IMG/VR virus record: IMGVR_UViG_3300010234_000020
Coordinates: 1-44,595 of that record
Direction: 5' to 3' (one strand)
DNA from: a virus
Lineage: Duplodnaviria; Caudoviricetes
DNA length: 44,595 nt
Below are positions 945 through 21,008 of the stretch, in pieces. The notes under the pieces are model-generated. The model had not been told where the DNA came from and searched no databases. It saw only the letters and a list, made by a program, of their open reading frames with translations. Position numbers and translations under genes: made by a program. Position 1 is the stretch's first letter. Each line of letters begins with the position of its first letter.

Positions 945-1005
945 CGCGCGCCACATGGTATAGGATCACACGTGTCGGCGATGGGGCCGACCGGGAGACA
1001 CGACG
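945..1005 (+). promoter_or_regulatory. Early expression cassette (CCACATGG, TAGGAT -10, GATGGG-loop hairpin, GGAGACAC RBS)
   Basis: CCACATGG 951-958, TAGGAT 961-966, GTCGGC-GATGGG-GCCGAC 974-991, GGAGACAC 994-1001, ATG 1006. Confidence 0.8.
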
Positions 1006-1251
1006 ATGACGAACCAGACCACGACCATCGACCTTTACACCGAACTGGCCCGCGACGGGTACCCGTACTCGTGCTCGTGCGGCGAGGCGTTCCGCGACTC
1101 GGCGGCGGCGATCACGTGCCGCAAGTGCCGCAAGTACCTGGAGGACGACGTGATCCGCCGCGTCTACCTCACCGACCCCCTGGACGGCGAGTACGTCGAG
1201 ATCGTGGACCCGTGGACGTTCGACGGGTTCTGGATCTATCCCCCGGCGTAG
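1006..1251 (+). CDS. Small zinc-finger protein (CxC...CxxC), 81 aa, moron-like
   Basis: CSC and CRKC motifs, strong RBS and its own promoter cassette; opposite strand to the head genes. Confidence 0.75.
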   Translation: MTNQTTTIDLYTELARDGYPYSCSCGEAFRDSAAAITCRKCRKYLEDDVIRRVYLTDPLDGEYVEIVDPWTFDGFWIYPPA

Positions 1252-2186
1252 ACAGACTGGGCCGTGTTCGCGACGAAGTTGGGATGCGGCCGGAACGCCG
1301 CGAACTTGGCGGGCTTCACCAGGCGGAGCCCGCCATCGTCGTTGAGCCACCCCTTGCGGCGGGCCTCGAACTTGGTGACCGGGCGAATGCTGTGGCGGCA
1401 GTTGTACCCGTACGGGGGCGTCGCCGTTCTCCATACGGCATGATCCACCGGGGCCACGAGGCCCATGGCGGCGAGGTGGTTCTCGCCCCCGTCCTCGCTC
1501 CGCCCCCGTCGCGTGTTCGAGTCGGTGGACCCGATGACCGCGAAGCCGAGGACGAACTTCGACACGGTCGGCTTGCGCGCCTCCTGGAATTCGCCCGCCG
1601 TGAACGCGGTCACGAGGTTCGTGCGGTACACCGTCTCGCTGTACGACTTCGACCACCCCGACAATTCACGGACCGCCCGCCGACCGTCGGGGACCGACAG
1701 GCCCTCCTTGGTGGCGCGCGCCACGAGCTTCTGAAGGCGCGCGGTCACGGCCTCGCTGATCGACCGCGCGGCCGCGAAGCCCCAGCGGGCGTACGCCTTG
1801 GCCACCGCCACCCCGGTCCGGGCCAGCGTCGGCGTGCGGGACAGGACCGAGTCAACGGCCTTGTCGAATGGCACCTTGGGGACGACCGGGAAGGCCTCGA
1901 GGGCGAACGCACCGGCGACCGCCGACACGTCTACCGGTTCGGCCGACTCCACCGCACCCCCGGGGTCGTCCAGGTCCACGCCCTCGGCCTCGAGGATCCG
2001 GTGGATACGGTGCCGCCCGAGGAGGTCGGCCAGGGCCATGCCCTCGGCGACGATGGTGGCGATGCGCTCCTCGGCCGCGAATTGGCCCCGCCCGTCGGCG
2101 TGAGCGCGCACCAGGCGCCGGATCGCCCCGGCAAGGGCGCGGGGGTCACGCCCGGCCAGCGCGGACAGCGTGGGGTCCGTGGCCAC
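1236..2186 (-). CDS. MuF / SPP1 gp7-like minor head morphogenesis protein
   Basis: ETVYRTNLVTAFTAG, DSNTR..HLAAMG, W...TPPYGYNCRHSI motifs of Phage_Mu_F. Confidence 0.92.
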   Translation of the reverse strand: MATDPTLSALAGRDPRALAGAIRRLVRAHADGRGQFAAEERIATIVAEGMALADLLGRHRIHRILEAEGVDLDDPGGAVESAEPVDVSAVAGAFALEAFPVVPKVPFDKAVDSVLSRTPTLARTGVAVAKAYARWGFAAARSISEAVTARLQKLVARATKEGLSVPDGRRAVRELSGWSKSYSETVYRTNLVTAFTAGEFQEARKPTVSKFVLGFAVIGSTDSNTRRGRSEDGGENHLAAMGLVAPVDHAVWRTATPPYGYNCRHSIRPVTKFEARRKGWLNDDGGLRLVKPAKFAAFRPHPNFVANTAQSVYAGG

Positions 2187-3622
2187 TATCCCGAGATCCG
2201 CAGGACGTCGGCCAGCATGTCCTTCGCCCAGTCCACGGCCGACCCGGCGCCGACCATGTCGGACTTCGACGCGCGACCGGACTTGAGGAGGCGGCCGTAC
2301 GTCCGGAGGTCCGAGGCCACGTCGCTGATCATCGTGGCCGTCGCGCGGTCGGCCACCGACCTCGAGGCCTCGTCCAGTTCGGTGGACGCGCGCAGCATCT
2401 TGCCCGACGCGTTCTCGTCGTGCCCCCGGTCCATCATGCCCCAGGCGTCGCCGACCGCGTTGAGCGCGTCGCCGATCCGCTTGGCGGGGTGCTTGACGAC
2501 CTTGTCCTCCTTGCCCGGCTTGATGGAGATGTCGCCGGACGCGATGGCCTTCTCGACGGCACCGGCCACGCGGGTCGCCCCGTCTCCGGTGCGCGACCGT
2601 GGCCGGTCCGTCGGCTTGTCGCCCTTGGACCCGCCACCCCCGTCATCCGGCCCCCAGCGTCGGCCGCCGGTGTCGCGGTCGTTCTTGCGCTGCTCGCGGA
2701 TCTTGCGCGCCTTCGGGCTGATTTCGTCGTCGGTCAGCGACTTGTCGTCTGCCTGATCACCCGCCGATCGGCCGATGGTCGTCTTGGACTTCCCGGACCC
2801 GCCACCACCCGACGGGGCGAATTCTCCCTGGTCGTTGCGGTTCACCTTGGACTCATCGAAGAACCGCGCGGGCTGGGTCGGGTCCGTGCGGGGCCGCGAC
2901 GCCGCGAACGACTCGCCAAGGCCGAGTTCCTTCTTGATCGCCAGGACCTCGTCCAGGTTCGTCTCGTACTCGTACGCGAACGCCTCGCTGTCGGGGTTCT
3001 TGGCGGCCGCCTTTTCGGCCAGGTCCATCGTCTTCTTCTTGCTGATCCCGGCGACGTGCCCCCGGCCGTCGTACGTGACCACGACGAAGGGGAAGTCCCC
3101 GAGGCCACGGTTCACGGTTTCGGGCGCCGCGCCCGACAGGACCGGGTACCCGTCGGAGTCGTACGCCACGGCCCGCCGATCATGCACGGCCTCGACCGAC
3201 CCCTTGCGCAGGGACTCGATGATCTCCTCGCGGGTCGGCTTGGCCTTGGGGCTGATCGCGGTTCCGTACCCGGGGGCCAGGCCCGCGTCGTGCATGGCGT
3301 GGCGCATCTCGCGGGCCATCTCGGCTCGCTTGCCGACGGGCGCGGCGGTGGACTTGCGCTCCCCGCCCCCACTCGGGTCGAACTTCTTGCGGATGGCCCG
3401 GAGCGTCTCGTTCTCGCCGCCCGGTGCGTTCCGCCGGGGGTCGCGGCCGGTCGGGTTCGGGGCCTTGCGATCACCACCACCACCGCCGCCCTTGGGGGCG
3501 AATTCCCCGTCCGCGTTGCGCTCGATCTTCGACTCGTCGAAGTACCGGCCCCCGTTGGGGTGCATCGTGACGCGCGCCGCAAAACGACCGCGTGCGGCCC
3601 GGATGATCCGATCGGTCTTCAC
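2186..3622 (-). CDS. Putative internal head protein, 478 aa, with two FDESKxxRNxxGEFAPxGGGG modules
   Basis: Lies between portal and MuF with its stop overlapping the MuF start; duplicated motif; charged, Gly-rich. Confidence 0.65.
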   Translation of the reverse strand: MKTDRIIRAARGRFAARVTMHPNGGRYFDESKIERNADGEFAPKGGGGGGDRKAPNPTGRDPRRNAPGGENETLRAIRKKFDPSGGGERKSTAAPVGKRAEMAREMRHAMHDAGLAPGYGTAISPKAKPTREEIIESLRKGSVEAVHDRRAVAYDSDGYPVLSGAAPETVNRGLGDFPFVVVTYDGRGHVAGISKKKTMDLAEKAAAKNPDSEAFAYEYETNLDEVLAIKKELGLGESFAASRPRTDPTQPARFFDESKVNRNDQGEFAPSGGGGSGKSKTTIGRSAGDQADDKSLTDDEISPKARKIREQRKNDRDTGGRRWGPDDGGGGSKGDKPTDRPRSRTGDGATRVAGAVEKAIASGDISIKPGKEDKVVKHPAKRIGDALNAVGDAWGMMDRGHDENASGKMLRASTELDEASRSVADRATATMISDVASDLRTYGRLLKSGRASKSDMVGAGSAVDWAKDMLADVLRISG

Positions 3623-3630
3623 GTGTTCAC

Positions 3631-5007
3631 CTATCCCGCCCGGCGTGCCGTGAACGGCATCCCCCCGGGCATGTCGTCACCGGGCGCCGACGGAGCGACG
3701 CCCTCAATGATCTCGTCATCCTCGGACGGCATCGACCACCCGAGGCGGTCGTAGAGTTCGGTCTTCACCAGCGGGATACCGGCCCCAAGGATGGCGGCCA
3801 CGGTGCGCGCCACCTTCTCGGGGTCGGACTCGTCAACCGACGTCGCGGTGAGGCGGGGCATGGCGGCATCGCCCAGGCCCAGGGCCTTGATTTCCTTCTG
3901 GTTCCAGTACCAGATCGCCCCGACGAGGTACCGCGAGATCGACTCGTAGAGCGCCCGCCGGTCGTAGCCCACCAGGGTCTCGGTGCTGTCCGACTCGACC
4001 TCGGCGCGCGCGTTCGATCCGACATCGGCGCCGCCCCCGGTGGGGAGGACCGACCCGAGGATGACCTGCGTGATCGCCTGGTCGAGGTACTCGAGCCACG
4101 CGAACACCTGGGTGTGTCCCGACGCATCGGCCCACAGGACATCCAGCTCGTCGTCGGCGTCCATCGCGAAGATGCCGCCCTGGCGTTGCTGCTCCAGTTC
4201 GTCCAGGTACGCGTCGCGCGTCGTTTCATTCGACAGCGGCGAGCTGCCCTTGCCCGAGATCTTGGCCACGACCATCCCGCGCGCCCACTTCTCGAGGCCC
4301 TCCAGGCCCTCGCGCAGCACGATGCCCTTGGCGTAGTGGTAGAAATAAATGGCCTCGGCCAGGCCGCGACCATGCCCGAGGCGGCTCTCCTCGTCGTCGT
4401 AGGCGAAATGGATCAGCGGGGCGCTCGGGTGGATCGGCGCCCACGTGTGCGTCTCGATGTCGTGGATCTCGTACGCCATCGTGATCCGGCGACCGGCGGC
4501 GGCCCCGGAGTCCCAGTCGGGGACGGACCGGATGCGGCGCTTGTCGATGTTCCTGATCCGCGTGGGGAGCCACCAGTTCCCGGTGCGTCCGCCGACGGTC
4601 ATGGGCCGACGCGACCCCTCGATGTATCCCCACGTCTCGCCCAGGAACACGCCCTTGGCGAGGTGGTACCGGGCCTGCGTGAGGCCGGGGACCATGTCCA
4701 CGATCTCCTCCATCAGCGTGACCGCGTCCTCGTCCACCGGGCGCGCGCGTCGCTTGCCGGGGACGAGTTGCCAGTCGCGTCCGGCGACCTTGTGCAAGCG
4801 CGCCTCGAAGGCGTGCTTGATGACCGGGTCGCGCTGGACCTTCTCCCAGTACTCGGGGTCCTGGGCCAGGGCGTAGTCGGGGTCGTAAACCTCGATGCCG
4901 TTCCGGTATGCGACGCCAAGGGCGTGCGCGTACAGGCGCGAGTTGATCGCGCGCGTCATCATGTACGAGCCAGCGTTGCCGTCGTCGTTCCCGATGCTCA
5001 TGGTCAC
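3631..5007 (-). CDS. Portal protein, Mu gp29/DUF935 family
   Basis: GHGRGLAEAIYFYHYAK..LEKWARG, LEYLDQAITQVILGSVL..G..GSNARAEV; directly after TerL. Confidence 0.9.
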   Translation of the reverse strand: MTMSIGNDDGNAGSYMMTRAINSRLYAHALGVAYRNGIEVYDPDYALAQDPEYWEKVQRDPVIKHAFEARLHKVAGRDWQLVPGKRRARPVDEDAVTLMEEIVDMVPGLTQARYHLAKGVFLGETWGYIEGSRRPMTVGGRTGNWWLPTRIRNIDKRRIRSVPDWDSGAAAGRRITMAYEIHDIETHTWAPIHPSAPLIHFAYDDEESRLGHGRGLAEAIYFYHYAKGIVLREGLEGLEKWARGMVVAKISGKGSSPLSNETTRDAYLDELEQQRQGGIFAMDADDELDVLWADASGHTQVFAWLEYLDQAITQVILGSVLPTGGGADVGSNARAEVESDSTETLVGYDRRALYESISRYLVGAIWYWNQKEIKALGLGDAAMPRLTATSVDESDPEKVARTVAAILGAGIPLVKTELYDRLGWSMPSEDDEIIEGVAPSAPGDDMPGGMPFTARRAG

Positions 5008-7065: not shown

Positions 7066-7107
7066 CGCCGCCTCCTTCACGCCCACGATCGGACGGTAGC
7101 GGGTGGA

Positions 7108-7423: not shown

Positions 7424-7777
7424 TCAGTCGCGGAAGTTCGCGACGGCGCGGCGCTCGGCGTCGGTCGTGTTCGGGTCGCACATGAAGCACATGTCGCCCC
7501 ACGCGTCCACGTGGTCCCCGCACTCCTCGCACCGGGGCGGAACCCGCTGCAGGGACACGACGGCGTCGAGGACGATCTCGTCCTCGATGATCAGCCCGTC
7601 ATCGTTGAGGCCCGCGAGGCGGACGCGCACGGCCGGGACGATGTTCCAGGTGGGGGTCGCCTCGGTCACGGTCACGTGCCCCGAGAAGCCGATGTATCGC
7701 CCGACCTCGCCGAGGTCGAGGACGTCGCCCGTGTTGATCTTGCGGACGTTGACGGTGCGGGTGTCGGTGTTGTTCAT
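7424..7777 (-). CDS. Hypothetical early protein with C-terminal CxxC-x-CxxC, 117 aa
   Basis: ATG 7777 follows a full cassette with GGAGACAC; CEEC...CFMC. Confidence 0.75.
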   Translation of the reverse strand: MNNTDTRTVNVRKINTGDVLDLGEVGRYIGFSGHVTVTEATPTWNIVPAVRVRLAGLNDDGLIIEDEIVLDAVVSLQRVPPRCEECGDHVDAWGDMCFMCDPNTTDAERRAVANFRD

Positions 7778-7840
7778 GGTCGTGTCTCCAGTCGGCCCCA
7801 TCGCCGACGTCAGAAGGATACGCCACGCGGCGGGGGGACC
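7778..7840 (-). promoter_or_regulatory. Early expression cassette
   Basis: CCGCGTGG 7830-7823, TATCCT, GTCGGC-GATGGG-GCCGAC 7808-7791, GGAGACAC. Confidence 0.8.
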
Positions 7841-7921: not shown

Positions 7922-8545
7922 CTACTTGGCGATGCGGACCTGCGTCCCGGCCCGGATGGCCTTCAGGCAGGGCTTGCACTCGCGGCTGCGGCCGTGGCGC
8001 TTGACGTTGGCGCGGTTCCGGTAGAAGGCGTCCAGGGGCATGACCTGGAGGCACTCGACGCAGGTGATCTTCGTGGTCCCGTCCTCGTCCGTGGCGACCA
8101 CGTTGGCGAGCGTGATCTTGGCCACCCGCGCCTTCTTCGCCTTCTTGGGGGCGGGGGCCGGGGCGGGGATCTCGACCGCCTCGACCTCGACCGGCATCTG
8201 CTGCGGGTCGAACCGCTCGAGGATCGCCGTGCGGATGGCGGCCGCCTCGGCGGCCGACCCGAACGAGGACCAGAAGGTCGGCAGGTAGAAGCACGCCTTG
8301 CGGTCGTTGATGTCGGTGTGATCGGCGATCACCAGGTCCTTCTGGCCCATGCGCTGCAGGCACGTGCGGACCGACGTGGTCGCGTACGACGTGGCCTCCG
8401 CGATGTCGTACGCGTCCACGTCGCTGAACCCGGGCTCGGCGTAGAGGCCGCGCACCAGGGCGACGAAGACCTTGCGGCCCATCGTGGTCATGCTGTCGAT
8501 CGCGTTGAGGATCTTGTGGGCGGCGGCGTTCGTGTTCTTGGTCAT
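7922..8545 (-). CDS. Putative DNA-binding protein: N-terminal winged HTH plus C-terminal zinc finger
   Basis: AYDIAEATSYATTSVRTCLQRMGQKDLV (wHTH); CVEC..LDAFYRN...RECKPC; Pro/Lys linker. Confidence 0.7.
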   Translation of the reverse strand: MTKNTNAAAHKILNAIDSMTTMGRKVFVALVRGLYAEPGFSDVDAYDIAEATSYATTSVRTCLQRMGQKDLVIADHTDINDRKACFYLPTFWSSFGSAAEAAAIRTAILERFDPQQMPVEVEAVEIPAPAPAPKKAKKARVAKITLANVVATDEDGTTKITCVECLQVMPLDAFYRNRANVKRHGRSRECKPCLKAIRAGTQVRIAK

Positions 8546-8613
8546 CTCAGTGTCTCCGTTTCTCGGTCACCCCATCGCGACCGTGCTGAGACGATAAGCC
8601 CTGCGCCACGTGG
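8546..8613 (-). promoter_or_regulatory. Early expression cassette
   Basis: CCACGTGG 8613-8606, GCGCAGGGCTTATCGT, CGGTCGC-GATGGG-GTGACCG 8583-8564, AAACGGAGACAC. Confidence 0.8.
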
Positions 8614-8721: not shown

Positions 8722-9627
8722 TTACCGCGTGAGGGCGGCGAACGCGGCGACGTTGACCTTGGCCAGGCGGCCCCGGGTGACGGCCTCGGCGCGGCGCCCC
8801 GTGCCGGGCTTGGCGCGGGCCACCCCGTCCGCGTGGTTCGTGGCGTTGGTGACCGCGTTGAAGGCGACCCAGGCCGTGTCCGGGTTCCCCGTCGCGTTCT
8901 CGCGCTCCCAGCGGATGGCGGCGAGGGCGACCTCGTACCGGTTGCGGATGCGCGCGTCCTTCGCGTCACGGTCCCCGCCGAGGGCGTTGGCGACGAATGC
9001 CACCTGCTCGGCGTTCGTCATCGCGCGGTGGGCGAGGGCGTTGGCCCGGCCCCGGAACTGGTCCCAGTTGGCGGCGGCCTCGCGCATCATCCCGGCCGCG
9101 ATCAGCAGGCGCTGCGGGGCGGAGGACGTGTGCGTGACGCGGAGGAGGGCGTGCCCGGCCTCGCGGCGACACATCACGAACTGGTTGCTGCAGTTGAGGT
9201 TCGTGGTGGTGAGCATCGTCTGCAGGGCGGTCTTGCCGTCGTACCCGGCGAGGATCGTGAGGGCGGGGACGACCGTGCTGCCACCGATGTCGGCGCCGCC
9301 ACCCGGGAGGCCCATCTGGAAGGCGATGGTGCGGCCGTCGTTCCAGACGGCGACGTTGTCGAACGTCGCGCCCTCACCGGCGGCGGCGTCGGCGATGGCC
9401 CCGACCTGCTCGGGCTGGATCACCGCGTACCGGCTCCCGACCATCGCGAAGAAGGTGCCGTCGTCCTTCAGCATCGCGCGCCACGGGATCGGGTTCTCGT
9501 CGCTGCGCCACTCGGGGTTAACGGCCTGCACGTCCTCGAGGCGGACGGTGAAGTCGGCTCCGGCGGCGCGCATCGCCTCGTATGCGGTCGTGGCCTTGGC
9601 GGTCGTCTGTGCGAACTTGCTGCTCAT
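8722..9627 (-). CDS. DUF932 (TIGR03299-like) phage/plasmid protein
   Basis: VGSRYAVIQP, ILAGYDGKTA, NLNCSNQF..VTHT, TAWVAFNAVT pattern. Confidence 0.8.
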   Translation of the reverse strand: MSSKFAQTTAKATTAYEAMRAAGADFTVRLEDVQAVNPEWRSDENPIPWRAMLKDDGTFFAMVGSRYAVIQPEQVGAIADAAAGEGATFDNVAVWNDGRTIAFQMGLPGGGADIGGSTVVPALTILAGYDGKTALQTMLTTTNLNCSNQFVMCRREAGHALLRVTHTSSAPQRLLIAAGMMREAAANWDQFRGRANALAHRAMTNAEQVAFVANALGGDRDAKDARIRNRYEVALAAIRWERENATGNPDTAWVAFNAVTNATNHADGVARAKPGTGRRAEAVTRGRLAKVNVAAFAALTR

Positions 9628-9685
9628 CGTGTGTCTCCTTGTCGCCGGGTCTATTCCCGACGTGCCCCGAGTCTACGCCATGCGG
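9628..9685 (-). promoter_or_regulatory. Early expression cassette
   Basis: CCGCATGG 9685-9678, TAGACT, GTCGGG-AATAGA-CCCGGC hairpin, AAGGAGACAC. Confidence 0.75.
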
Positions 9686-9757: not shown

Positions 9758-10393
9758 CTACTCGGTGACCGACCTCACGGCGCCCCCGATGGCGAGGATG
9801 AAGTCCTCCGCGCACCCCCTCGCCACCATCGTCCGCCCGACGGTCCCGACGGTGAGCAGCGTACGGGCGGGGCCGAAGGTCCCGTCGTTGAGGTCGGTGG
9901 TGGCGTCGGCCACCTCGGACACGTCCCGGGCGCGAACCCACGCCAGGGCGCCGGAGTCGTCGTGGAAGCGGACCCACCCGGCGAGGTTCGGCGAGGGGGT
10001 CGGGGTCTGGGTCGGGGTGGCCCGCACCGGGTCGGGGTCCGGGGTCACCCGCGCCGGGGTCGCCACCGTGGACGCGGCCTGGGGCAGCATCATCTGCCCG
10101 GCCCCCCGGCGGGTCTCCCTGCGGTGGGGGTCGGCGACGTCGTCGGCCGGGGTCGGCAGACGGTACACCCAGCGGAGGCGGCCATCGACGGCCACCCGCT
10201 CGCGGACGATCACCGGGGGCGACGCGTCGCGGAAGTAGCGGACCCAGGCGGTGGTGAGCCCGTTGCTACTGAGGTTCAGGGCGGCGGCGAGCTGGTCGTG
10301 GGTCCGCTCCCCCATCGTGCCGATGATCGTGGGCCAGGACTTCAGGTGCCACGTGGCGGACCGGCGGCGGCGGGCGTTCGGGTTCTTCTTCAT
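9758..10393 (-). CDS. Hypothetical early protein, 211 aa, possible N-terminal winged HTH
   Basis: ATG 10393 after cassette; THDQLAAALNLSSNGL...WVYRL; Pro/Thr linker then a second domain. Confidence 0.65.
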   Translation of the reverse strand: MKKNPNARRRRSATWHLKSWPTIIGTMGERTHDQLAAALNLSSNGLTTAWVRYFRDASPPVIVRERVAVDGRLRWVYRLPTPADDVADPHRRETRRGAGQMMLPQAASTVATPARVTPDPDPVRATPTQTPTPSPNLAGWVRFHDDSGALAWVRARDVSEVADATTDLNDGTFGPARTLLTVGTVGRTMVARGCAEDFILAIGGAVRSVTE

Positions 10394-10460
10394 CTCGTGT
10401 CTCCGTTTCTCGGCCGATCCCATACCGGCCATCGTGTGTAGCCTACCATGCGGCGGGGAC
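10394..10460 (-). promoter_or_regulatory. Early expression cassette
   Basis: GTCCCCG-CCGCATGG (10453-10446)-TAGGCT, GGCCGGT-ATGGG-ATCGGCC 10430-10412, AAACGGAGACAC. Confidence 0.8.
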
Positions 10461-11084: not shown

Positions 11085-11543
11085 TTAGACGTCGTGCTTG
11101 CCGGTGATCCACGCGCACTGCGTGTGTCGGCGGACGGTGATCCCGTGGAGGAGCGCGATGGCGTCGAGGTACGGGAGGGCGATGGCGTCGAGGGCCTGGC
11201 TGTCCGCGTCGATGAAGAACTTCGAGGCGTCGCGGGGTCCGACGGTCCGGTAGAGGGCCGTGGCGAGGGCGCGAACCAGATCGTCACAGGTGGTCCGCCC
11301 GGCGGGCGTGTGCTCGGCGGCCCAGGCGTCCTCGGGGGTGAGGTGGGGGAGGCCGACCGACTCGAGGGCGTCGGCGATGTTGGCGACCCAGGCCGCGATG
11401 GTGAGGGCGCCCGTCTTGGCGTCGTGCGCGTCGGCGAGCCTGGCGAGATGCTCGAGGCGCTCGAGGTCGGTGACGATCCGGCGGGCCAGGTCGGCCGCGC
11501 ACTCGATGTTGTCGGCGCGGATGGTGTTCTTGCGATCGGTCAT
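11085..11543 (-). CDS. Hypothetical helical early protein, 152 aa
   Basis: ATG follows a full cassette; protein-like composition. Confidence 0.75.
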   Translation of the reverse strand: MTDRKNTIRADNIECAADLARRIVTDLERLEHLARLADAHDAKTGALTIAAWVANIADALESVGLPHLTPEDAWAAEHTPAGRTTCDDLVRALATALYRTVGPRDASKFFIDADSQALDAIALPYLDAIALLHGITVRRHTQCAWITGKHDV

Positions 11544-11605
11544 GGCTGTGTCTCCTCGTCGGCCCCATCGCCGACACGGAGGAGACTACGCCCTACGCCA
11601 CGCGG
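11544..11605 (-). promoter_or_regulatory. Early expression cassette
   Basis: CCGCGTGG 11605-11598, TAGTCT, GTCGGC-GATGGG-GCCGAC 11575-11558, GAGGAGACAC. Confidence 0.8.
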
Positions 11606-11660
11606 TCACCAGGTCGATCTGGTCGAGTGGTGAACTTTTCCGCGCGCGCCACCAACGCAA

Positions 11661-11688
11661 CAGGGGGCGGCCTTGCGGCCACCCCCTG
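11661..11688 (-). terminator. GC hairpin after recT (terminator-like)
   Basis: CAGGGGGCGGCC-TTGC-GGCCACCCCCTG; weak U tract; related hairpin at about 8659-8684. Confidence 0.5.
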
Positions 11689-11731
11689 CGCTGGGAGACA
11701 CGGGGGCGCAACGAGCGCCTCCGCCGATGGG

Positions 11732-12595
11732 TCAGAACGGGGCGTCCGGGAAGGGCGACACGGGGGCGTCCCCCTCCACCTCGCCCGTCTCGGGGTCGAT
11801 GCCCCCCGGCGGGTCCGGTTCGTCGGACGGGTCGCTCACGTCGGCAGCGACGTTCGCGGTGGGCGGGACGACGGCGTCGAGCATCGAGTCGCCGTCGTGC
11901 GAGTCGGCGCCGGACGCGAGGGCCAGCAGGCGCTGGTCGTCGTCGTCGGCGGGGAGGAGGTTGCACAGGCGGAGGACCGCCGTCTTCTTCGCCATCGCCG
12001 CGTAGTCGGTGACCCAGGGGCCGTTCGACCGGGCCTTCGACCGGGCCTTGTACTGATCCACGTCATGCTTGGACAGCACCACGAAGATCGGGAGGTCGAT
12101 GGCGTCCCGCAGGTGGGCGACCGCGTAGACGGCGACGAGGTCGCCGCGATCGTCACCCAGGAAGGGGCGGTGGACGAGGCGGGGCGACGCCCCCTTCTCG
12201 TACTCGAACTCGTCCCGCTCGTACACGGCGTCCGCGTCCATGCGAACGACGTCACCGGACCGGCGCGCGATCTTCATGGCGCCCCGATAGTCGATGATCG
12301 GCGTGATCTCGAGGACGCCCCGGTTCTTGAACGGCACGAGGTGGATGCCACCCCGGCCGGTGGGGGCGAGGCCGGTCTGGGCGCTGAACAGCAGCGCGCG
12401 GGTGATCGACGCCCGCGAGCACGCCCAGAGCTTCGGGTTCATCGTGAACGCGGCCGCGATCATGCGGACGTACCGCTGCGGCGTGATCCCCACCTGGGGC
12501 ATGGTCTTCGCGAGCTTCGCTTGGAACGACTCGCTGGCGAGCATCGCCTGGTTCTCCGCCGCGATCTGGGCGGGGGTCAAGTTCGGTTGTCCCAT
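11732..12595 (-). CDS. recT: RecT/Redbeta-family ssDNA annealing protein
   Basis: NPKLWACSRASITRALLFSAQTGLAP, IDYRGAMKIARRSG, VYERDEF, GPWVTDYAAMAKKTAVLRL. Confidence 0.95.
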   Translation of the reverse strand: MGQPNLTPAQIAAENQAMLASESFQAKLAKTMPQVGITPQRYVRMIAAAFTMNPKLWACSRASITRALLFSAQTGLAPTGRGGIHLVPFKNRGVLEITPIIDYRGAMKIARRSGDVVRMDADAVYERDEFEYEKGASPRLVHRPFLGDDRGDLVAVYAVAHLRDAIDLPIFVVLSKHDVDQYKARSKARSNGPWVTDYAAMAKKTAVLRLCNLLPADDDDQRLLALASGADSHDGDSMLDAVVPPTANVAADVSDPSDEPDPPGGIDPETGEVEGDAPVSPFPDAPF

Positions 12596-12655
12596 CGGGT
12601 TCCTCCTTCACGGTCATCATCGACCGGTCACATACGTTACCACGCGGCGGGGACA
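12596..12655 (-). promoter_or_regulatory. Early expression cassette
   Basis: TGTCCCCG-CCGCGTGG (12647-12640)-TAACGT, CGGTC-GATGAT-GACCG, GAAGGAGG. Confidence 0.75.
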
Positions 12656-12914: not shown

Positions 12915-13450
12915 TTCTTGAAAACCTCCAGGCGGACGGGGTGAAGGGACTCGCGGGCCATGACGACGCCCGCCTGGGCCGCCGCCGCGTAGACCTGGTC
13001 TGCCGTCAACGGGCTGTGCTCGATCATGAGGTCCGCCATGATGCGCGCCCACTCCGGGCCGTGCCCCGCGTGGTGCAGCCACGTCGAGGGGGTCCAGTGG
13101 AGGGCGTGCGCGACCTCGTGGATGATCGACTCGCCGGAGTAGGAGTCCTGGCGCATCTCGATCACGCCATTCCCGCCACGGGACCGCGTCGCCCGGCGAC
13201 GCCGCCACTTGAACACCAGGGCCGGGCCGGTGGCGCCGCGCACGGAGCGCCAGACGTCGTCGGCCAGGCGCTGCATCTCGTCCCTCGTGAGGCCCAGGAA
13301 CCGGCGACCGTTGGCGGTCGTGCCGAGGCGCATGCACATGAGGCGATCCCATCGGTAACACTTCGCCCGCTGGCTATCGCGCACCCGTCGGCGGGGTCCG
13401 GTCGTCGGTCCGTTCGGGACCATGCGGGGCATCGTTCTGGTTGAGGTCAT
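12911..13450 (-). CDS. HExxH zincin metallopeptidase (SprT/TIGR04338-like), 179 aa
   Basis: RDSQRAKCY N-terminus; IIHEVAHAL...HAGHGPEW. Confidence 0.8.
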   Translation of the reverse strand: MTSTRTMPRMVPNGPTTGPRRRVRDSQRAKCYRWDRLMCMRLGTTANGRRFLGLTRDEMQRLADDVWRSVRGATGPALVFKWRRRRATRSRGGNGVIEMRQDSYSGESIIHEVAHALHWTPSTWLHHAGHGPEWARIMADLMIEHSPLTADQVYAAAAQAGVVMARESLHPVRLEVFKK

Positions 13451-13513
13451 CGGCGGGTCTCCGTCGTCGCCGACCCCCACGGCCGCCGACGCCCCGGACA
13501 CTACGCCATGTGG
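13451..13513 (-). promoter_or_regulatory. Early expression cassette
   Basis: CCACATGG 13513-13506, TAGTGT, hairpin with GTGGG loop, ACGGAGAC. Confidence 0.75.
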
Positions 13514-13976: not shown

Positions 13977-14974
13977 TTGTTCCCCCTCGCGCGCGGCGCG
14001 TAGATGCTCGTGAACGTGTACCCGGCCCGGGTGCGGGGCTCAACGGTGGTCGTTCGGTACGTCCACTTGCGGCCGTCCGGGAGGACGCCCACCGGGGCGC
14101 CACCCAGGGCCGCGATCATCCGCGTGCCGATGGCCTTCTTGCGCGCCTTGAGCTCCTTGATCTTGGCGGAGATCTCGTCGTGCTCATCGGTGAGCGCGAG
14201 GGCGTCGAGGTCCAGCGTGACGGGGTCCGCCTTGTGGCTCGGGTTCATGGCGATCACGGCCTCGCGGTCGGCGTCGCTGTCCCCGGCATCGGGGGCATCC
14301 CCGTCGCGGAGGCGGCGTGCGAAGTCGGCGATCACGGCGGCGGACTCATCGCCATACCCGGGGTCGGCCGGGACGACGAACCAGCGGAAGGAGTTCCCGC
14401 CGATCAGGGCGCCAACGTAGGTCTCGGGCATGCCGGTCACGAGCATCCCGTGCTGGCACTGGGCGATGACCCACGACGGCGGGCCGTCGTCCCACTGGTC
14501 GGCGCTGAAGTGGCCGACGTTCTTGATCTCCACCATGCGGACGGGGGCGCCCCGTGCCCCGACCACGAACCCGTCCGGGCTGTGGGCCAGTTCGGGGTGC
14601 GCGTCATTACGGGCGAGGGTGTTCGCGGTCCGCAGGATCTTCGTTCCCGACTCGGCGGCCAGGAACTGCATGATCGACGCCTCGAGGAAGTTCCCGAGGC
14701 GCAGGTACTGGGGCGCGTCCTCGTCGGGCGTGCGCGGGATGATGCCCGCCTTCTTGCACCATGCCATGAGGGGCGACGAGTAGGGGGAGCCGCCGACGAG
14801 GACGGCCGCGTCGGTGCCCGTCACGAACGCGTTGCGCGCCTCGAGCCAGTGGTCGCGGGTGGCGTACCGGTCGAGGACGATGCCGTCGCCCAGGTCGTTG
14901 GAGGCGATGACCCCGTCCGCCCTGGGCTCCTGGGGTGCTGGGTCGCGGCCGTTCAGGCCAAGTATTCTGCCCAC
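13973..14974 (-). CDS. YqaJ-like (lambda-exonuclease family) exonuclease
   Basis: WLEARNAFVTGTDAA, LGNFLEASI, HSPDG..MVEIKN, QCQHGMLVTG. Confidence 0.93.
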   Translation of the reverse strand: MGRILGLNGRDPAPQEPRADGVIASNDLGDGIVLDRYATRDHWLEARNAFVTGTDAAVLVGGSPYSSPLMAWCKKAGIIPRTPDEDAPQYLRLGNFLEASIMQFLAAESGTKILRTANTLARNDAHPELAHSPDGFVVGARGAPVRMVEIKNVGHFSADQWDDGPPSWVIAQCQHGMLVTGMPETYVGALIGGNSFRWFVVPADPGYGDESAAVIADFARRLRDGDAPDAGDSDADREAVIAMNPSHKADPVTLDLDALALTDEHDEISAKIKELKARKKAIGTRMIAALGGAPVGVLPDGRKWTYRTTTVEPRTRAGYTFTSIYAPRARGNK

Positions 14975-15050
14975 GTGTATCTCCTTGGTCGTGGCGCGCG
15001 TGGCGCCGGTTCATCGGAACGATCGCCACCGTACCACGTGGCGGGGACAC
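14975..15050 (-). promoter_or_regulatory. Early expression cassette
   Basis: GTGTCCCCG-CCACGTGG (15041-15034)-TACGGT ... AAGGAGATACAC-GTG. Confidence 0.7.
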
Positions 15051-15057
15051 CGGCCGG

Positions 15058-16425: not shown

Positions 16426-17399
16426 CAGACACCGTCCCCGTCGGTCACGGGACCGATCGCGCGCGCGGCGGCCTTCGGGTCGCCCTTCACGAAGACCAGC
16501 ATGGTCTGGTGCGTGCGCCCGATCTTGCGCGACACGTCGAACTGCTTCCTGGCGCGCATCGCCAACGTGCCCGTGGCCGTCTGGAGGATGATCTCGTTGT
16601 AGTACCGCACGCCGGGCGCCGACGTGGCGGCCGCGATGGTCTCGCCCACGAAGTCGCGGAGCGTGCCGCGCTTGTCGCGGAAGTTCCCGACGACGATGGC
16701 GGCGAACCGGTCGGCGCGCAGGCGGGTGCAGGCGGCCCGGATGATCTCCGCGTACGCCTCACGGAACGCGTCGGCGTCCATCGTGGACAGGTCGAGGGGA
16801 TCGTCGCTGTACCGCTCGAGGTCGCCGTACGGGGGGCACGTGAAGACCATGTCGTACCCGGTGACGTCGGGCCACCCGTTCGGGATCACGTGACGACTAT
16901 CACCGGCCTGCCACGTGGCGCGGTGGGCGTTGACGCCGAGGATCTCGGTGGCCTGGGCGCGGTTCGCCAGGACCTGGGCCTTCCGTAGATCGACCCCGTT
17001 GTACTCGCGCCCGAGGACGGCGGCGACGATGCCGCGCACCGATCCACCCGCGAACGGGTCGAGGATGTTGCCGCGCGGGGGGCAGAACCAGCGGTAGGCC
17101 AGCTCACACAGGACGGGGTCGAAGATCGACGTGTCCGACTGGCCGCCATCCTTGACGTCGTCCGTCTTGTCGATCCAGTCGGCGATGTTGTAGCAGAGGC
17201 CGTCGTCGCGCCCCACCTCGCTGCGGATGCCCAGGGCCTTCCAGCCGCGCTTCCGGTCCTGCCACGGCCCGGCGCCAGCGTGTAGGACGCTGAACGGCGG
17301 CAGGATGAACGCGTCGGCGAGGGCGTTTCGCGTGGACGAGGGGGGTGGTAGTGGGTTGCCCCACAGGTCGAGCCCGTACGGGGCGAAGTCGTCGGTCAT
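16425..17399 (-). CDS. SAM-dependent DNA amino-methyltransferase-like protein, 324 aa
   Basis: SIFDPVLCELAYRWF, motif I ILDPFAGGSVRG, motif IV VFTCPPY; AAGGAGG RBS before ATG 17399. Confidence 0.88.
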   Translation of the reverse strand: MTDDFAPYGLDLWGNPLPPPSSTRNALADAFILPPFSVLHAGAGPWQDRKRGWKALGIRSEVGRDDGLCYNIADWIDKTDDVKDGGQSDTSIFDPVLCELAYRWFCPPRGNILDPFAGGSVRGIVAAVLGREYNGVDLRKAQVLANRAQATEILGVNAHRATWQAGDSRHVIPNGWPDVTGYDMVFTCPPYGDLERYSDDPLDLSTMDADAFREAYAEIIRAACTRLRADRFAAIVVGNFRDKRGTLRDFVGETIAAATSAPGVRYYNEIILQTATGTLAMRARKQFDVSRKIGRTHQTMLVFVKGDPKAAARAIGPVTDGDGV

Positions 17400-17460
17400 C
17401 GGGTGCCTCCTTGGTCGCCGGAATGGCGACGTGAGGCGACGGTACCACGCGGGTCCGACA
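17400..17460 (-). promoter_or_regulatory. Early expression cassette (leftward)
   Basis: CCGCGTGG 17452-17445, TACCGT, GTCGCC-ATTCC-GGCGAC, AAGGAGGCAC. Confidence 0.75.
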
Positions 17461-17469
17461 TGCGCCAAT

Positions 17470-17695
17470 GGCGGGGAAGGACACTTCCCCTCGGACTTGT
17501 CCGGTACATCCGCCCGGGGCCGTCCGGGGCGGTCCGGGCGCCTATCCGGGGTCGCTTCCGCCAACAGACAGACAAGACTTACTTCTACACTCTCTAATCT
17601 TACGGCTACACCCGGGGAGGGGTGGGACTTGTCCGAGTCCTTCGTGCCTGGGGGGTGGGACACTTGTCCAGTTCGCCCCCCCCGAAGTGTCCCAG
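17470..17695. other. Putative replication origin/operator region
   Basis: Divergent intergenic gap; GGAC(AC)TTGTCC-type repeats flank an AT-rich tract at about 17563-17603. Confidence 0.55.
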
Positions 17696-17755
17696 TCCCC
17701 GCCATGTGATACCGTGCGGTGGTGGCGTCGATGGGGACGCCCTGGAGACACCTGC
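17695..17755 (+). promoter_or_regulatory. Early expression cassette (rightward)
   Basis: GTCCCCG-CCATGTGA-TACCGT, GGCGTC-GATGGG-GACGCC 17724-17741, GGAGACAC. Confidence 0.75.
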
Positions 17756-20740
17756 ATGACCATCCGCGACGACATCGAAACCCACGGGCGACTCCCCGCC
17801 CTCATCGCCCACCTGTTCCCCACGATCGGCCCCCGGGGTAAGGTCCGGTGCCCAACGCCGGAACACGAGGACCGGAACCCCAGCGCGTCCCTGAACGCCG
17901 AGACGGGCGCGTGGAAGTGCCACGGTTGCGGCGCGCGTGGTGACGCCGTTTCGCTCTACGGCGACCGGCTCGGCCTCACCGACTTCGCCGACATCGCGGA
18001 GGCCCTGCGGGGGGCCGGTTTCCTGCCCCCCGGCGATGGACCCGCGCCCCCACGTTCCCCCGTTGCGCCCCGTACGGTGACCCCGCCGAAGGGGCCGGTG
18101 GCCGAGGTTGCGGTGGGGCCGCGCCCGGGGATCATGCCCCCCGATGACGCGCCTCGCGACATTCCACCCCTCACCGCATGGCCGCCCACGGCCGACGTCC
18201 TCAACGCCCTCGGGTGGGTCCGGTCGGGTGACGTCGTCCGCGTCCCCGTGGTCAACGGGTCGGGGGTGGTGTGCGGGGTGAAGGTGCGCGGGGGGCGGGG
18301 ACGGGACGGCCGGGTCAGGACGTTCTTCGAGCCGTGCCGGTCGGGTACCCAGGACCCCGGCGTGATCGTGACGCGCGACATCATCGGGGGCCAACGTGGT
18401 CGCCTCGCGTTCGTGGTGGAGGGTGAGTCGGACATGGCGGCCGTCACGTGGGCGGCGACCGCCGAGGGGGTCCGCGTCCCGGTGGTCACGTCATCGAACG
18501 GCGCCACCAGTGGGCTGCCCGGGGGTGGCGCCGCCCTCCTCGCCGGGTACCGCGTCGCCGTGATCTACGACGCCGACGCGGCGGGGGTCCGTGGTGCGAC
18601 CGCCGTGGCCGACGAACTGGCGGCCGCAGGCATCCCGGTCACCGTCCTCGACCTGTGGGACGCCGTGACGGAACGCCGTGGCCGTGACCTCCGCGACTAC
18701 CTCGCGCACGGCGGCACCGTCGCCACCCTCATCGACGCCGCCGAACGTGCCCTCGCCGGTGACGGCCCGGGGGATGACGACGCGCGCCACGATGACCCCC
18801 CGGCGGACTGGTGGGAGGACCGGCGGCTGGAGCCCCTGGACGTTCCCGACGCCATGACGCCCCTCCCCACCATTGGCGTCGCGCCCCCCATGATCCTCCG
18901 CCTCGTGGATAGCCTCGCGGCCAGCATGCAGATCCACCGCGAACAGGTGTTCGTGACCATCGCCCCCGTCCTCGCCGCATCGGCCGGGGAGCCGTGGGCG
19001 GTGGACCGGGTGGAGTGGGGGGTGGAGCGCCCGGCGAGGGTGTACCGCGAGCCGTGCCTGGCGCGGTGGGCGTTGTTCGGCGCCGGGTCGGGGAGTCGGA
19101 AGACCGGCACGATCAACGCGGTCACCCGCCCGATGCGGGAGTGGGAGGCGGCGCGGGCGGTGGAGTTCCGCGCGGACGAGATCGAGTGGCGGGGCCGCAA
19201 GGACGCCCTGATCCAGCAGCGCAAGCGCGCCCTCAGCGACATCGAGCACCTCGACCGTGGCGCGGAGTGGGAGGACGCGATGGCGGCGATCCGCGAGATC
19301 GACATGGCCCTCGAGTTCGAGGCGCCCGCCGAGTTGCGGGTGATCGAGGACAACGTGACCCCGGAGCAGTTTCTGGTCGTGTCGTGTCAGTCGCCGATCG
19401 CCCGGAGCATCATCGCCCACGAGGGCCGGGGGATGGCGTCGATCATCATGGGCGGGTACGCGGGCCGGACGCAGGAGGCGATGATCCTGCCGTTCGCCGA
19501 CGGCCTCCCCGGCGGCATCTCCCGTCGGAACAATGATACGCAGATCCACAGCCCGCGCCTCGTCGGGTCGCTGCTGATGGCCCTCCAGCCCGACGTCCTG
19601 AACGGCATGATGGGCAGCGCGAACCTCCGCAGCAGCGGCTTCCTGAGCCGATGTTCGGTCGTGCGCGTCCCCGGCTACGACACGGCCCGGAACCTCGTGG
19701 CCGAACCGGCCGAACCGGACGCGGCGGCGGAGGCGTGGTGGGGGCGGGTCATCGACGCCCTCCTGACCTTCGCCGCGATGCGACCCGAGGACGAGGAGGA
19801 CGAGGCGGCGGGGGGCGATGACGAGCCGACGTTCGGGGGCGACGTCCACGGCATCGCCGACAACGATCTATCCGCCCCCACGCGGCCGCGCATGAACGTC
19901 CTGACCCTCACCGGCGAGGCGTTCCACGAGTTCATCGTCTACGAGCAGTGGTGCGAGGAGATGCGCGCGGCGACGTCCGGGGAGTCGGGGCCGGTGTCGG
20001 GCATGATCGAGAAGCAGGCGATGGCCGCCCTACGCCTCGCCGCCCTCTACCACCTCACCACCCTGGCCCACGACGGCCTGTTGTCGCGCGCCGCGAATTA
20101 TCCGATCCCCGTGGAGTGCGTGCGTTGGGCGACGGCGGCCCAGGACTGGCTGGCCGAGGAGACGCGGCGGGCCATGGAGGTCACGATCTGCGACACGCCC
20201 GAACTGGTCCTCGCCCGTCGCATCGCGTCCATCATGCGCGACCGTCTACGCCTCGACCCCTCCGACCGATCCATGACGCCGCCGGAGATGCGGGACATCA
20301 TCCCGGGCGCCGAGGTGTCGGTGGTGGAGGCCGCGCTGCGGACACTTGTCCGCTTCGGCTATTGCCGCATGCCCCGGGATGAGTCACGGTACTGGCGCGA
20401 GCGCACGGTCCGGTACGAGTTCCACCCGGGCCTGGCCGAGATGTCGGACGAGGACCTGGCGCCCGACACCCTGCGGGTCATCGTGGACGCTGACGGCCGC
20501 CAGATCACGCTTCGCGGCGACACCGGCGTCCCGGCCAAGGCGATCATCACGGCGCCCCAGGCGGCGTTGTCCACCGCCCAGCAGGAGGAGGTATTCCTCC
20601 GCTACGGGCGGGGTGAGACCCAGGGGGCGTTGGCCACCGAGTACGGGGTGAGCGTGAAGACGGTGAGCCGGACCGTGAAGCGTGTGCGTGCGGCGATGGC
20701 CGAGAAGGCGGCTCGCGACACGGTGGCGGACTCGTTCTAG
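17756..20740 (+). CDS. Primase-helicase-like replication protein: CHC2 zinc finger + TOPRIM + DUF3987 P-loop + C-terminal HTH, 994 aa
   Basis: CPTPEHEDRNPS..WKCHGCG; VVEGESD, YDADAAG, DLRDYL; AGSGSRKT, SGFLSR; ETQGALATEYGVSVKTVSR. Confidence 0.88.
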   Translation: MTIRDDIETHGRLPALIAHLFPTIGPRGKVRCPTPEHEDRNPSASLNAETGAWKCHGCGARGDAVSLYGDRLGLTDFADIAEALRGAGFLPPGDGPAPPRSPVAPRTVTPPKGPVAEVAVGPRPGIMPPDDAPRDIPPLTAWPPTADVLNALGWVRSGDVVRVPVVNGSGVVCGVKVRGGRGRDGRVRTFFEPCRSGTQDPGVIVTRDIIGGQRGRLAFVVEGESDMAAVTWAATAEGVRVPVVTSSNGATSGLPGGGAALLAGYRVAVIYDADAAGVRGATAVADELAAAGIPVTVLDLWDAVTERRGRDLRDYLAHGGTVATLIDAAERALAGDGPGDDDARHDDPPADWWEDRRLEPLDVPDAMTPLPTIGVAPPMILRLVDSLAASMQIHREQVFVTIAPVLAASAGEPWAVDRVEWGVERPARVYREPCLARWALFGAGSGSRKTGTINAVTRPMREWEAARAVEFRADEIEWRGRKDALIQQRKRALSDIEHLDRGAEWEDAMAAIREIDMALEFEAPAELRVIEDNVTPEQFLVVSCQSPIARSIIAHEGRGMASIIMGGYAGRTQEAMILPFADGLPGGISRRNNDTQIHSPRLVGSLLMALQPDVLNGMMGSANLRSSGFLSRCSVVRVPGYDTARNLVAEPAEPDAAAEAWWGRVIDALLTFAAMRPEDEEDEAAGGDDEPTFGGDVHGIADNDLSAPTRPRMNVLTLTGEAFHEFIVYEQWCEEMRAATSGESGPVSGMIEKQAMAALRLAALYHLTTLAHDGLLSRAANYPIPVECVRWATAAQDWLAEETRRAMEVTICDTPELVLARRIASIMRDRLRLDPSDRSMTPPEMRDIIPGAEVSVVEAALRTLVRFGYCRMPRDESRYWRERTVRYEFHPGLAEMSDEDLAPDTLRVIVDADGRQITLRGDTGVPAKAIITAPQAALSTAQQEEVFLRYGRGETQGALATEYGVSVKTVSRTVKRVRAAMAEKAARDTVADSF

Positions 20741-20864
20741 CAGCGCGTGTCCGTGCCGCGTGGTACATTTCTCCTTCATCGGGCGCTCGGCGTGCGACCA
20801 CCCCATCCCGGGCGAACCTCCGGGGGTCAAGCGCCACCACCTCGCGCCATGGTGTCTCCCAGCC

Positions 20865-20895
20865 ACGCCCCCGGCGATCCGTCGCCGGGGGTCGT
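20865..20895 (+). terminator. GC hairpin downstream of the primase gene
   Basis: CCCCCGGCGA-TCCG-TCGCCGGGGG; weak U tract. Confidence 0.5.
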
Positions 20896-20940
20896 GTGCG
20901 TTCTGGGGTCCGTGGGGGTTTTCCGAGAATGCACTCGACG

Positions 20941-21008
20941 CCGCATGGCGCAGGGCTTATCGTTCTGCGTGTCGGCCGTGGGGGTCGGCGGAAAACGGAG
21001 ACATGACG
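20941..21008 (+). promoter_or_regulatory. Early expression cassette
   Basis: CCGCATGGCGCAGGGCTTATCGT (near-copy of 8613-8591), GTCGGCC-GTGGG-GGTCGGC 20971-20989, AAACGGAGACA. Confidence 0.8.

What the first reader, a model, noticed from the sequence alone, without database searches (positions are those of the whole stretch)
974..20989. Leader hairpin with a conserved (G)RTGGG loop on covarying stems
Seen: GTCGGC-GATGGG-GCCGAC three times (974-991, 7791-7808, 11558-11575), CGGTCGC-GATGGG-GTGACCG (8564-8583), GGCGTC-GATGGG-GACGCC (17724-17741), GGCCGGT-ATGGG-ATCGGCC (10412-10430), GTCGGCC-GTGGG-GGTCGGC (20971-20989, similar near 13470) and CGGTC-GATGAT-GACCG (about 12611-12626). Stem sequences differ but pairing is kept, including G-U pairs that work on the transcribed strand, while the loop is retained. 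Inference: a small structured RNA motif at the 5' end of early mRNAs that a protein recognises (translational control, boxB-like antitermination or 5' protection). I do not recognise it as a described family.
Basis: partly seen in the sequence, partly recalled or inferred. Interest (0 to 1): 0.7.

Follow-up and report, generated by a model that had tools for sequence, protein, structure and literature searches.

The report
Phage leader hairpin with antisense partner
An uncultured phage puts the same small hairpin with a fixed loop in front of nine genes with early-type promoters, unrelated phages use the same hairpin, and this phage also carries two predicted small RNAs matching that loop and the neighbouring ribosome-binding tag, which would likely switch these genes off together.

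Summary
Nine hairpins lie 6-8 nt after a -10-like box, before an SD tag (GGAGACAC or a variant) and a start codon. The same promoter-hairpin-SD-ATG unit occurs in about 11 other lineages; among 10 records compared, no protein is common to all (89). The stem covaries (5 of 6 pairs) and the loop stays GAUGGG. No Rfam family matches (7, 19).

Two intergenic, sense-strand elements, A (20776-20900, own promoter) and B (3' of recT), each carry the loop complement and the tag complement before a strong hairpin. They rank first and second in a genome-wide scan; 0 of 600 simulations gave two such sites. Two unrelated phages have differently built RNAs exposing the loop complement, with anti-tags fitting their own leaders. 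Four other lineages show none, including a complete genome with one hairpin.

Best reading (0.55): a kissing-loop target for phage antisense RNA that represses early translation, working like c4, CI or 6C RNA without being a member. Nothing shows transcription or binding. This scan noted similar anti-leader RNAs on other phage DNA.

The parts
961..1008 (+). Cassette: -10-like box TAGGAT (961-966), hairpin 974-991 (loop GATGGG), tag GGAGACAC at 994, ATG 1006 (81-aa ORF, no family)
7775..7820 (-). Cassette: -10-like TATCCT, hairpin 7808-7791 (GATGGG), tag at 7789, ATG 7777 (117 aa, no family)
8543..8596 (-). Cassette: -10-like TATCGT, hairpin 8583-8564 (GATGGG, one G.U), tag at 8557, ATG 8545 (207 aa, weak endonuclease VII-like match)
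10391..10445 (-). Cassette: -10-like TAGGCT, hairpin 10431-10411 (ATGGG, two G.U), tag at 10404, ATG 10393 (211 aa, no family)
11541..11588 (-). Cassette: -10-like TAGTCT, hairpin 11576-11557 (GATGGG), tag at 11555, ATG 11543 (152 aa, no family)
12593..12639 (-). Cassette of recT: -10-like TAACGT, hairpin 12626-12611 (variant loop GATGAT), variant tag GGAGGAAC at 12606, ATG 12595; poorest match to the partners
13448..13503 (-). Cassette: -10-like TAGTGT, hairpin 13490-13466 (GTGGG, one G.G mismatch), variant tag GGAGACCC at 13462, ATG 13450 (SprT-like, weak)
17710..17758 (+). Cassette of the primase-like gene (CHC2 zinc finger, Toprim, DUF3987): -10-like TACCGT, hairpin 17724-17741 (GATGGG), tag at 17744, ATG 17756
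20958..21011 (+). Cassette: -10-like TATCGT, hairpin 20970-20990 (GTGGG, three G.U), variant tag GGAGACAT at 20997, ATG 21003 or 21009
20760..20769 (+). Promoter-like site of the same class (GTGG-TACATT) with no SD/ORF behind it; predicted promoter of RNA A
20776..20900 (+). Candidate antisense RNA A: long bulged stem with the loop complement CCCCATC (20801-20807) in a 7-nt bulge, tag complement GTGTCTCC (20852-20859) at the stem foot, then a GC-rich terminator-like hairpin (20867-20892, no U-run). Also the 3' end of the primase-gene transcript
11660..11731 (-). Candidate antisense element B directly after the recT stop: CCCATC (11731-11726), small hairpin, GTGTCTCC (11701-11694), strong hairpin (11689-11660); shares a 12-mer with A
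9625..9681 (-). Promoter-led leader of the DUF932 gene: 5' hairpin with another loop (AATAGA) but a perfect tag
14972..15037 (-). Promoter-led leader of the YqaJ gene: no clear loop hairpin; tag variant GGAGATAC still pairs by G.U
17397..17448 (-). Promoter-led leader of the methylase-like gene: 5' hairpin with loop ATTCC; tag variant GGAGGCAC still pairs by G.U

Best explanation
The hairpin is a conserved RNA stem-loop in front of the ribosome-binding site of genes with early-type promoters, and its GAUGGG loop is likely the landing site for phage-made antisense RNAs (A and B here) that would pair with the loop and with the GGAGACAC tag and so would block translation of the whole set. SHOWN: position behind a -10-like box, stem covariation, loop conservation across unrelated phages, exact complements in two intergenic sense-strand elements, and loop complements in structured intergenic elements of two other lineages. 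INFERRED: (1) host RNA polymerase starts at about the first base of the hairpin; (2) A is made from a promoter of the same class, and B as the 3' end of the recT message, and both persist because they are folded; (3) the C-rich seed kisses the G-rich loop (6-7 bp) and the second seed covers the SD (8-9 bp); (4) ribosomes are excluded, so early proteins, the primase-like protein among them, fall after a delay, a built-in timer for the early-to-late switch. A side benefit of the paired 5' end on mRNA stability is possible.
For: All 9 GGAGACAC 8-mers in the genome are leader tags (7) or the reverse of A and B (2). In a scan of both strands for accessible complements of the nine leaders, B ranks 1 and A ranks 2 of about 566 windows. 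Both fall in a class (intergenic, sense, >=10-bp hairpin within 110 nt) that covers 0.7% of positions, and they are the only 2 of 29 CCCATC sites in it. Two such two-seed sites arose in 0 of 600 Markov simulations (one in 53). A has its own promoter-like site and no ORF and shows the seed in a bulge (z -2.6 to -2.9 with its terminator hairpin). Phage contig G006:C15 (7 cassettes, other SD tags) has an intergenic 14-bp stem exposing ACTCCTCGC plus CCCCATC before a 15-bp hairpin: rank 3 of about 1306, best on the coding strand, matching 6 of its own 7 tags by 6-8 nt and the window's tags by 5-6 nt. In the G010 lineage the only terminator-like hairpin on the coding strand has loop CCCCATCA, against 0 of 36 control terminators; one of five relatives has a paired insertion in that stem. 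Three of five tag variants in the window keep pairing by G.U. Precedent: 6C sRNA represses many mRNAs through C-rich loops pairing G-rich leader loops (PMC6486639, passages).
Against: No transcript, binding or repression data. No partner found in 4 of 7 lineages with >10 kb of sequence: G009 (complete, one hairpin), G001 (65% complete, the case I named in advance), the G002 group (57%) and G007 (13%). A and B were spotted by eye before the scan that ranks them, and window 3 (+32451, antisense to a coding region) scores almost as well as A. In C15 the candidate falls to rank 9 without the accessibility term, and A also matches four C15 tags by 6-8 nt. In A and B the seeds lie in the same order as in the target, so simultaneous pairing needs a looped geometry; only C15 and G010 are colinear. 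A without its terminator hairpin folds no better than shuffles (z -0.08). No relatives of the window were found, so conservation of A and B is untested. A purely phage-encoded pair should be free to drift, yet the loop is nearly invariant across lineages.
Confidence: 0.55

Rival explanations
1. The loop is read by a conserved host factor, either an RNA-binding protein that grips a single hexaloop (ANTAR-like) or a host RNA with a C-rich loop, which would enhance or tune translation of early phage mRNAs. A and B would then be secondary or chance.
For: The loop is nearly invariant in lineages of 49-70% GC with no common protein, and a complete phage has it without a partner. ANTAR can bind one hexaloop and contacts only G4 (PMC8934654, passages); G4 is present, and one G007 copy has A1. 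Both 5S rRNAs fetched contain CCCAUU, a wobble complement of the loop.
Against: Loop position 1 is G, not A; a second hexaloop is found in 1 of 16 leaders; 5-nt loop variants exist. Host chromosomes hardly use the unit: 0 of 400 other Planctomycetota genomes, and 5 of 74 hits in 185,579 genomes have perfect stems, of which 2 look like real cassettes. It does not explain anti-loop elements in three lineages.
Confidence: 0.2
2. The hairpin is only a 5'-terminal stabiliser that hides the triphosphate end from RppH and 5'-dependent nucleases, spread by PeSL-like recombination of promoter cassettes; the loop is shared by descent.
For: The stem starts 6-8 nt after the -10-like box in all nine copies (7 nt for the extended 13490 stem). 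5' pairing is a known stabiliser (PMC3997798, passages). Two promoter-led leaders have a 5' hairpin with another loop. Repeated promoter-stem-loop-SD cassettes recombine in T4-like phages (PMC2839356, passages).
Against: Stems change in pairs while the loop does not, and promoters differ fully between lineages that share the exact 18-mer. Copies occur between genes with no clear -10 box (L273, G007). It does not predict complements elsewhere.
Confidence: 0.15
3. The element acts in transcription: a palindromic DNA operator just after the start site, or a nascent-RNA signal (boxB- or put-like) that helps promoter escape or antitermination.
For: It sits at about +1 to +18 of the predicted transcript, and a host RNA polymerase target would explain cross-phage conservation (inference).
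Against: An operator should keep its arms and vary the spacer; here arms covary and the spacer is fixed, with 7 G.U cells in real copies against 1 C.A. Terminator-like sites separate cassette units (7871-7902, 9707-9741), and no common phage protein was found.
Confidence: 0.1

Closest known systems
c4 antisense RNA of phages P1/P7 (Rfam RF01695) and CI RNA of satellite phage P4
   Same: Small phage RNA that controls phage genes by pairing with short complementary sites (CI with seqA and seqC; PMC4825925, passage; c4 seen only as a table row and reference in PMC2864571).
   Different: CI acts on sites flanking it in its own transcript and causes termination; here there are 9-12 dispersed leaders, an SD-covering seed, no Rfam match, and no integrase or repressor family among the proteins scanned.
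6C sRNA of actinobacteria (Rfam RF01066)
   Same: C-rich single-stranded loops pair with G-rich leader loops or RBSs of many mRNAs without a chaperone (PMC6486639, passages). The G010 element has two C-rich loops and scores 24.4 bits.
   Different: Host-encoded, with C-run loops and unmarked targets. Here it is phage-encoded with a dedicated target hairpin; the score is far under the 47-bit cut-off and A gives no hit.
Start-associated sequences (SAS/ESAS) of cluster K mycobacteriophages
   Same: A fixed SD-containing tag before non-structural genes, with positions not explained by 16S pairing; the partner, RNA or protein, is left open (PMC3203893, passages).
   Different: Different sequence. 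ESAS inverted repeats are reported not to support RNA hairpins, whereas this stem covaries and candidate partners are present.
PeSL cassettes of T4-like phages RB49 and phi1
   Same: Repeated promoter + stem-loop + SD + start in front of orphan early genes (PMC2839356, passages).
   Different: PeSL stem-loops lie within or upstream of the promoter and act as terminators; this one is predicted to be transcribed at the 5' end and has a fixed loop.
ANTAR target RNAs
   Same: Short GC stem with a hexaloop and G at loop position 4 (PMC3369931, PMC8164766, PMC8934654, passages).
   Different: No A at position 1, no tandem hairpin, no overlap with a terminator.

Membership tests
c4 / CI antisense immunity RNAs | Match to the Rfam c4 families | tested here: not met
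   No gathering-level hit in the window; no c4 hit at E<=10 over A, the G010 element or the C15 element.
c4 / CI antisense immunity RNAs | Two short seeds complementary to phage target sites | tested here: met
   Anti-loop and anti-tag in A and B; by sequence only.
c4 / CI antisense immunity RNAs | Targets flank the RNA in its own operon; role in lysogenic immunity | tested here: not met
   Targets are dispersed over 21 kb on both strands; no integrase or repressor family in the proteins scanned, many of which have no family at all.
c4 / CI antisense immunity RNAs | Processing from a precursor and repression in vivo | not testable with these tools
   No RNA data.
6C sRNA | Rfam RF01066 score >= 47 bits | tested here: not met
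   G010 element 24.4 bits; A no hit.
6C sRNA | C-rich unpaired loops complementary to G-rich leaders | tested here: met
   Predicted folds of A, the C15 element and the G010 element.
ANTAR target RNA | A at loop position 1 | tested here: not met
   G at position 1 in 27 of 27 aligned rows, which were selected on GATG; 7 of 9 window copies start with G, 1 with A in a 5-nt loop.
ANTAR target RNA | G at loop position 4 of a hexaloop | tested here: met
   the 5-nt variants are not hexaloops.
ANTAR target RNA | Second hexaloop 2-25 nt away | tested here: not met
   1 of 16 leaders.
ANTAR target RNA | ANTAR gene in phage or host bin | tested here: inconclusive
   0 of 5 records, but the control genomes did not ring either.
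PeSL | Repeated promoter + stem-loop + SD + start before orphan genes | tested here: met
PeSL | Stem-loop within or before the promoter, acting as terminator | tested here: not met
   The stem begins 6-8 nt after the -10-like box and has no U-run.
SAS/ESAS | 13-bp SAS consensus and 17-bp inverted repeats | tested here: not met
   The tag is an 8-mer of other sequence and the arms are 5-10 bp; compared by eye, not by a scan.
SAS/ESAS | Fixed tag restricted to starts of non-structural genes | tested here: met
   7 sense-strand GGAGACAC sites, all in promoter-led leaders in 1-18000.

The most novel reading that the evidence does not exclude
GAUGGG is a shared RNA address used by unrelated phages: a portable leader hairpin marks any gene for silencing by CCCAUC-bearing RNAs that have been built at least three times in different shapes (bulged stem, internal loop, terminator loop). 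One phage could therefore shut off the early genes of an unrelated co-infecting phage, and single-copy carriers without a partner such as G009 would be listening to others.
Probability: 0.15. Interest if true: 0.9.

Novelty: new variant of a known kind. Interest (0 to 1): 0.68.

Why it matters
How phages without their own sigma or anti-sigma factors turn early genes off, and what start-associated tags in phage genomes are for, are open questions (the SAS paper leaves the partner undetermined). Here both halves are in hand: a structured target with covariation and candidate RNA partners in three unrelated lineages, each short enough for reporter tests with compensatory changes. If right, a phage controls a dispersed regulon with a two-seed RNA, and the motif is a new RNA family for annotation. 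Even if the partner is wrong, a loop held constant across unrelated phages still needs an explanation.

Tried and rejected
Rfam: no family at gathering score in the window; only chance-level hits over A (19) and the C15 element. No tRNA (8). Loop-plus-SD pattern with no stem or promoter: too loose, 2 of 66 distinct hits (from 80 of 117 loci) had >=5 bp. First partner search (18) used a 10-40 nt gap, too short even for A; redone by script. uORF idea: the loop ATG/GTG falls in all three frames relative to the gene; rejected. A as a 5S rRNA mimic: 45 and 114 of 1000 shuffles score as well, and it is not in the genome-wide top ten; rejected. CsrA-type GGA loop: most copies read GGGG (72; CsrA motif recalled); rejected. 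Shared phage protein: only pairwise hits among 10 records. Apparent anti-seeds in G007 (+3528, reverse of a reading frame by my reading), G009 (+3359, small ORF), G001 (12622, inside a small ORF), L273 (reverse of a gene start) and G002 (-11606, not kept in G004/G012) were dropped. Close relatives: none (RecT <=40%, terminase <=45%; 14, 51, 52); A and the 955-1010 cassette have no real match in 50,697 phage records; none of the 86 RecT/terminase neighbour loci showed the cassette. Sequencing runs: none was listed, which is no evidence. The 20-nt covariance model (77) recovered the six 6-nt-loop window copies it was built from and missed the three 5-nt-loop copies; it added no convincing copy in five other records. 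Literature: nine searches listed no paper on this loop; only top listings were seen, and supplements (for example those of PMC2864571, whose table names a 'GUCCY-hairpin' I did not inspect) were not read.
Full report
CONTEXT. The window is a whole phage genome: 44,595 bases, 70% GC, direct terminal repeats, rated complete. It encodes a terminase, Mu-type portal, capsid, RecT, YqaJ, DUF932, RusA, a methylase-like protein and a primase-like protein. No close relative was found (RecT <=40%, terminase <=45% identity) and the host is unknown. 'Early' below is inferred from the host-type promoter-like sites and the non-structural genes.

OBSERVATION. All nine hairpins are present, three on + and six on -, each on the sense strand of the next gene. 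Hairpins of >=6 bp with an RTGGG loop number 8 against a simulated mean of 1.05 (maximum 4 in 200), and 7 lie in 1-21000. Each stem begins 6-8 nt after a TANNNT hexamer, mostly preceded by TG, and is followed by an SD-containing tag and a start codon. G.U pairs occur in 5 of 9 and the opposite strand folds less well in 8 of 9. The two GTGGG copies prefer other folds in prediction.

BEYOND THIS GENOME. The exact 18-mer gave 21 loci in viral contigs; in 8 of them (three lineages) it sits behind a -10-like box, and the other 13 look like chance. Of 168 distinct hits, 5 of 5 with a -35 box and ATG had perfect stems against 14 of 163 others (Fisher p 1e-5); with ATG alone, 13 of 31 against 6 of 137 (p 3e-7). 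Three more scans added G009 and relatives of G003. Lineages with the unit: G001, the G002 group, the G003/G010 group, G007, G009, G006:C15, L273, L334, L335/336, L351 and, less surely, L176. G006:C15 is a 99.6-kb contig with portal, DNA polymerase and recombinase genes inside a Planctomycetota bin and has 7 cassettes; 0 of 400 other genomes of that phylum matched. On 27 aligned copies (21 distinct, one a non-pairing miss kept in) 96% of cells pair, 5 of 6 pairs change on both sides, and 0 of 500 shuffles reach the covariation score. The loci were first noticed for their stems and rows were selected on GATG, so this count leans upward; one search is the less circular test. No protein is common to the 10 records compared. 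Two of three L273 copies and an AATGGG copy in G007 lie between genes with no clear -10 box, which ties the hairpin to the ribosome-binding site rather than only to the transcript start.

THE PARTNER. A promoter-like site at 20760 has no SD or ORF behind it. The stretch 20776-20900 (A) folds as a bulged stem with the loop complement in a 7-nt bulge and the tag complement at its foot, then a strong hairpin. A second element (B) follows the recT stop, with the same seeds, a shared 12-mer and a strong hairpin. Every GGAGACAC in the genome is a leader tag (7) or the reverse of A or B (2). B and A rank 1 and 2 of about 566 windows for accessible complementarity to the nine leaders, are the only 2 of 29 CCCATC sites in a class covering 0.7% of positions by my own rough gene calls, and two such sites arose in 0 of 600 simulations. 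I wrote the prediction that other carriers should hold a partner fitted to their own tag before testing it. It held in G006:C15, where an intergenic 14-bp stem exposes the complement of both of that phage's tag classes next to the anti-loop, before a 15-bp hairpin (rank 3 of about 1306, best on the coding strand), and in the G010 lineage, where the single terminator-like hairpin of the coding strand has the anti-loop as its loop and a partial anti-tag in its arm, conserved in five relatives with one paired insertion, against 0 of 36 control terminators. The G010 element was missed by my first filter and found on reading the region. The prediction failed in G001 (the case I had named; 65% complete), the G002 group (57%), G007 (13%) and the complete G009, which has one hairpin among about ten promoters. 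So 3 of 7 lineages with more than 10 kb.

MECHANISM. Most likely (0.55) the loop is a kissing site and the tag a second site for phage antisense RNAs that cover the SD and turn early translation down after a delay. Sequence, position, covariation and complementarity are shown; transcription, pairing, repression and timing are inferred. Weak points: the seed order in A and B needs a looped geometry; chance windows score close behind; A and B could not be checked for conservation; and the invariance of the loop across lineages is not explained by a phage-only pair. That last point keeps a host factor alive (0.2). A plain 5' stabiliser spread by recombination (0.15) and a role in transcription (0.1) fit less well.

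COMPARISON. It works like c4/CI antisense RNAs and 6C sRNA and looks like SAS and PeSL cassettes, but fails a defining test for each, and for ANTAR targets. Papers: passages read of PMC2839356, PMC2864571, PMC3997798, PMC4825925, PMC3369931, PMC8164766, PMC8934654, PMC12197685, PMC6486639 and PMC3203893; no whole texts or supplements. Nine searches listed no description of this loop; that does not cover subscription journals or supplements. Earlier notes of this scan describe anti-leader RNAs in other phages, one with the same loop-plus-RBS design; motif letters are masked there, so I cannot tell whether it is this loop, and sequence look-ups found no look-alike.

VERDICT. A real, apparently undescribed RNA leader motif shared by unrelated phages, with a specific and cheaply testable antisense partner. 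New variant of a known kind; interest 0.68.

Noticed in passing
window 15616-17399 (-): A PLP-dependent enzyme gene (PF00291) next to a methylase-like gene (PF01555) under one promoter-led leader; may be a DNA modification module.
   Followed up: no
window 13448-13494 (-) and 20966-21006 (+): The two GTGGG-loop leaders are predicted to prefer folds that cover the SD or start codon, so they may be switchable.
   Followed up: partly
window 20828-20859 (-): The reverse strand of A reads as tag + ATG + a 7-codon frame; no promoter-like site was seen for it.
   Followed up: partly
window 35930 (-): One promoter-like site of the same class inside the structural region, with no hairpin or tag behind it.
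   Followed up: no
G001:C1 12450-12700 (-) (L042): A divergent promoter drives a nearly leaderless 66-aa ORF that looks like a ribbon-helix-helix repressor (my reading, not searched); its 5' part holds both a CCTCC and the anti-loop, so the mRNA could double as a partner.
   Followed up: partly
G009:C1 80015-115100 (+): About ten sigma-70-like promoters whose leaders are rich in GAC/ACG repeats; only one has the GATGGG hairpin.
   Followed up: no
L511, L512 (5S rRNA of G008, G006): Both 5S rRNAs contain CCCAUU, a wobble complement of the loop; accessibility in the ribosome not examined.
   Followed up: partly
L509 7386-7449 (-): The G010 two-hairpin element resembles 6C RNA below threshold (24.4 of 47 bits) and may have its own promoter behind an HNH gene.
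   Followed up: partly
G002:C1 11500-11760 (-), also G004, G012: A strongly folded stretch divergent from the cassette, identical in its first 85 or so bases among relatives and then different.
   Followed up: no
L398, L406, L509 hairpins: Close relatives of G003 have a C.A mismatch at the closing pair, between the C-G and T-A forms seen elsewhere.
   Followed up: partly
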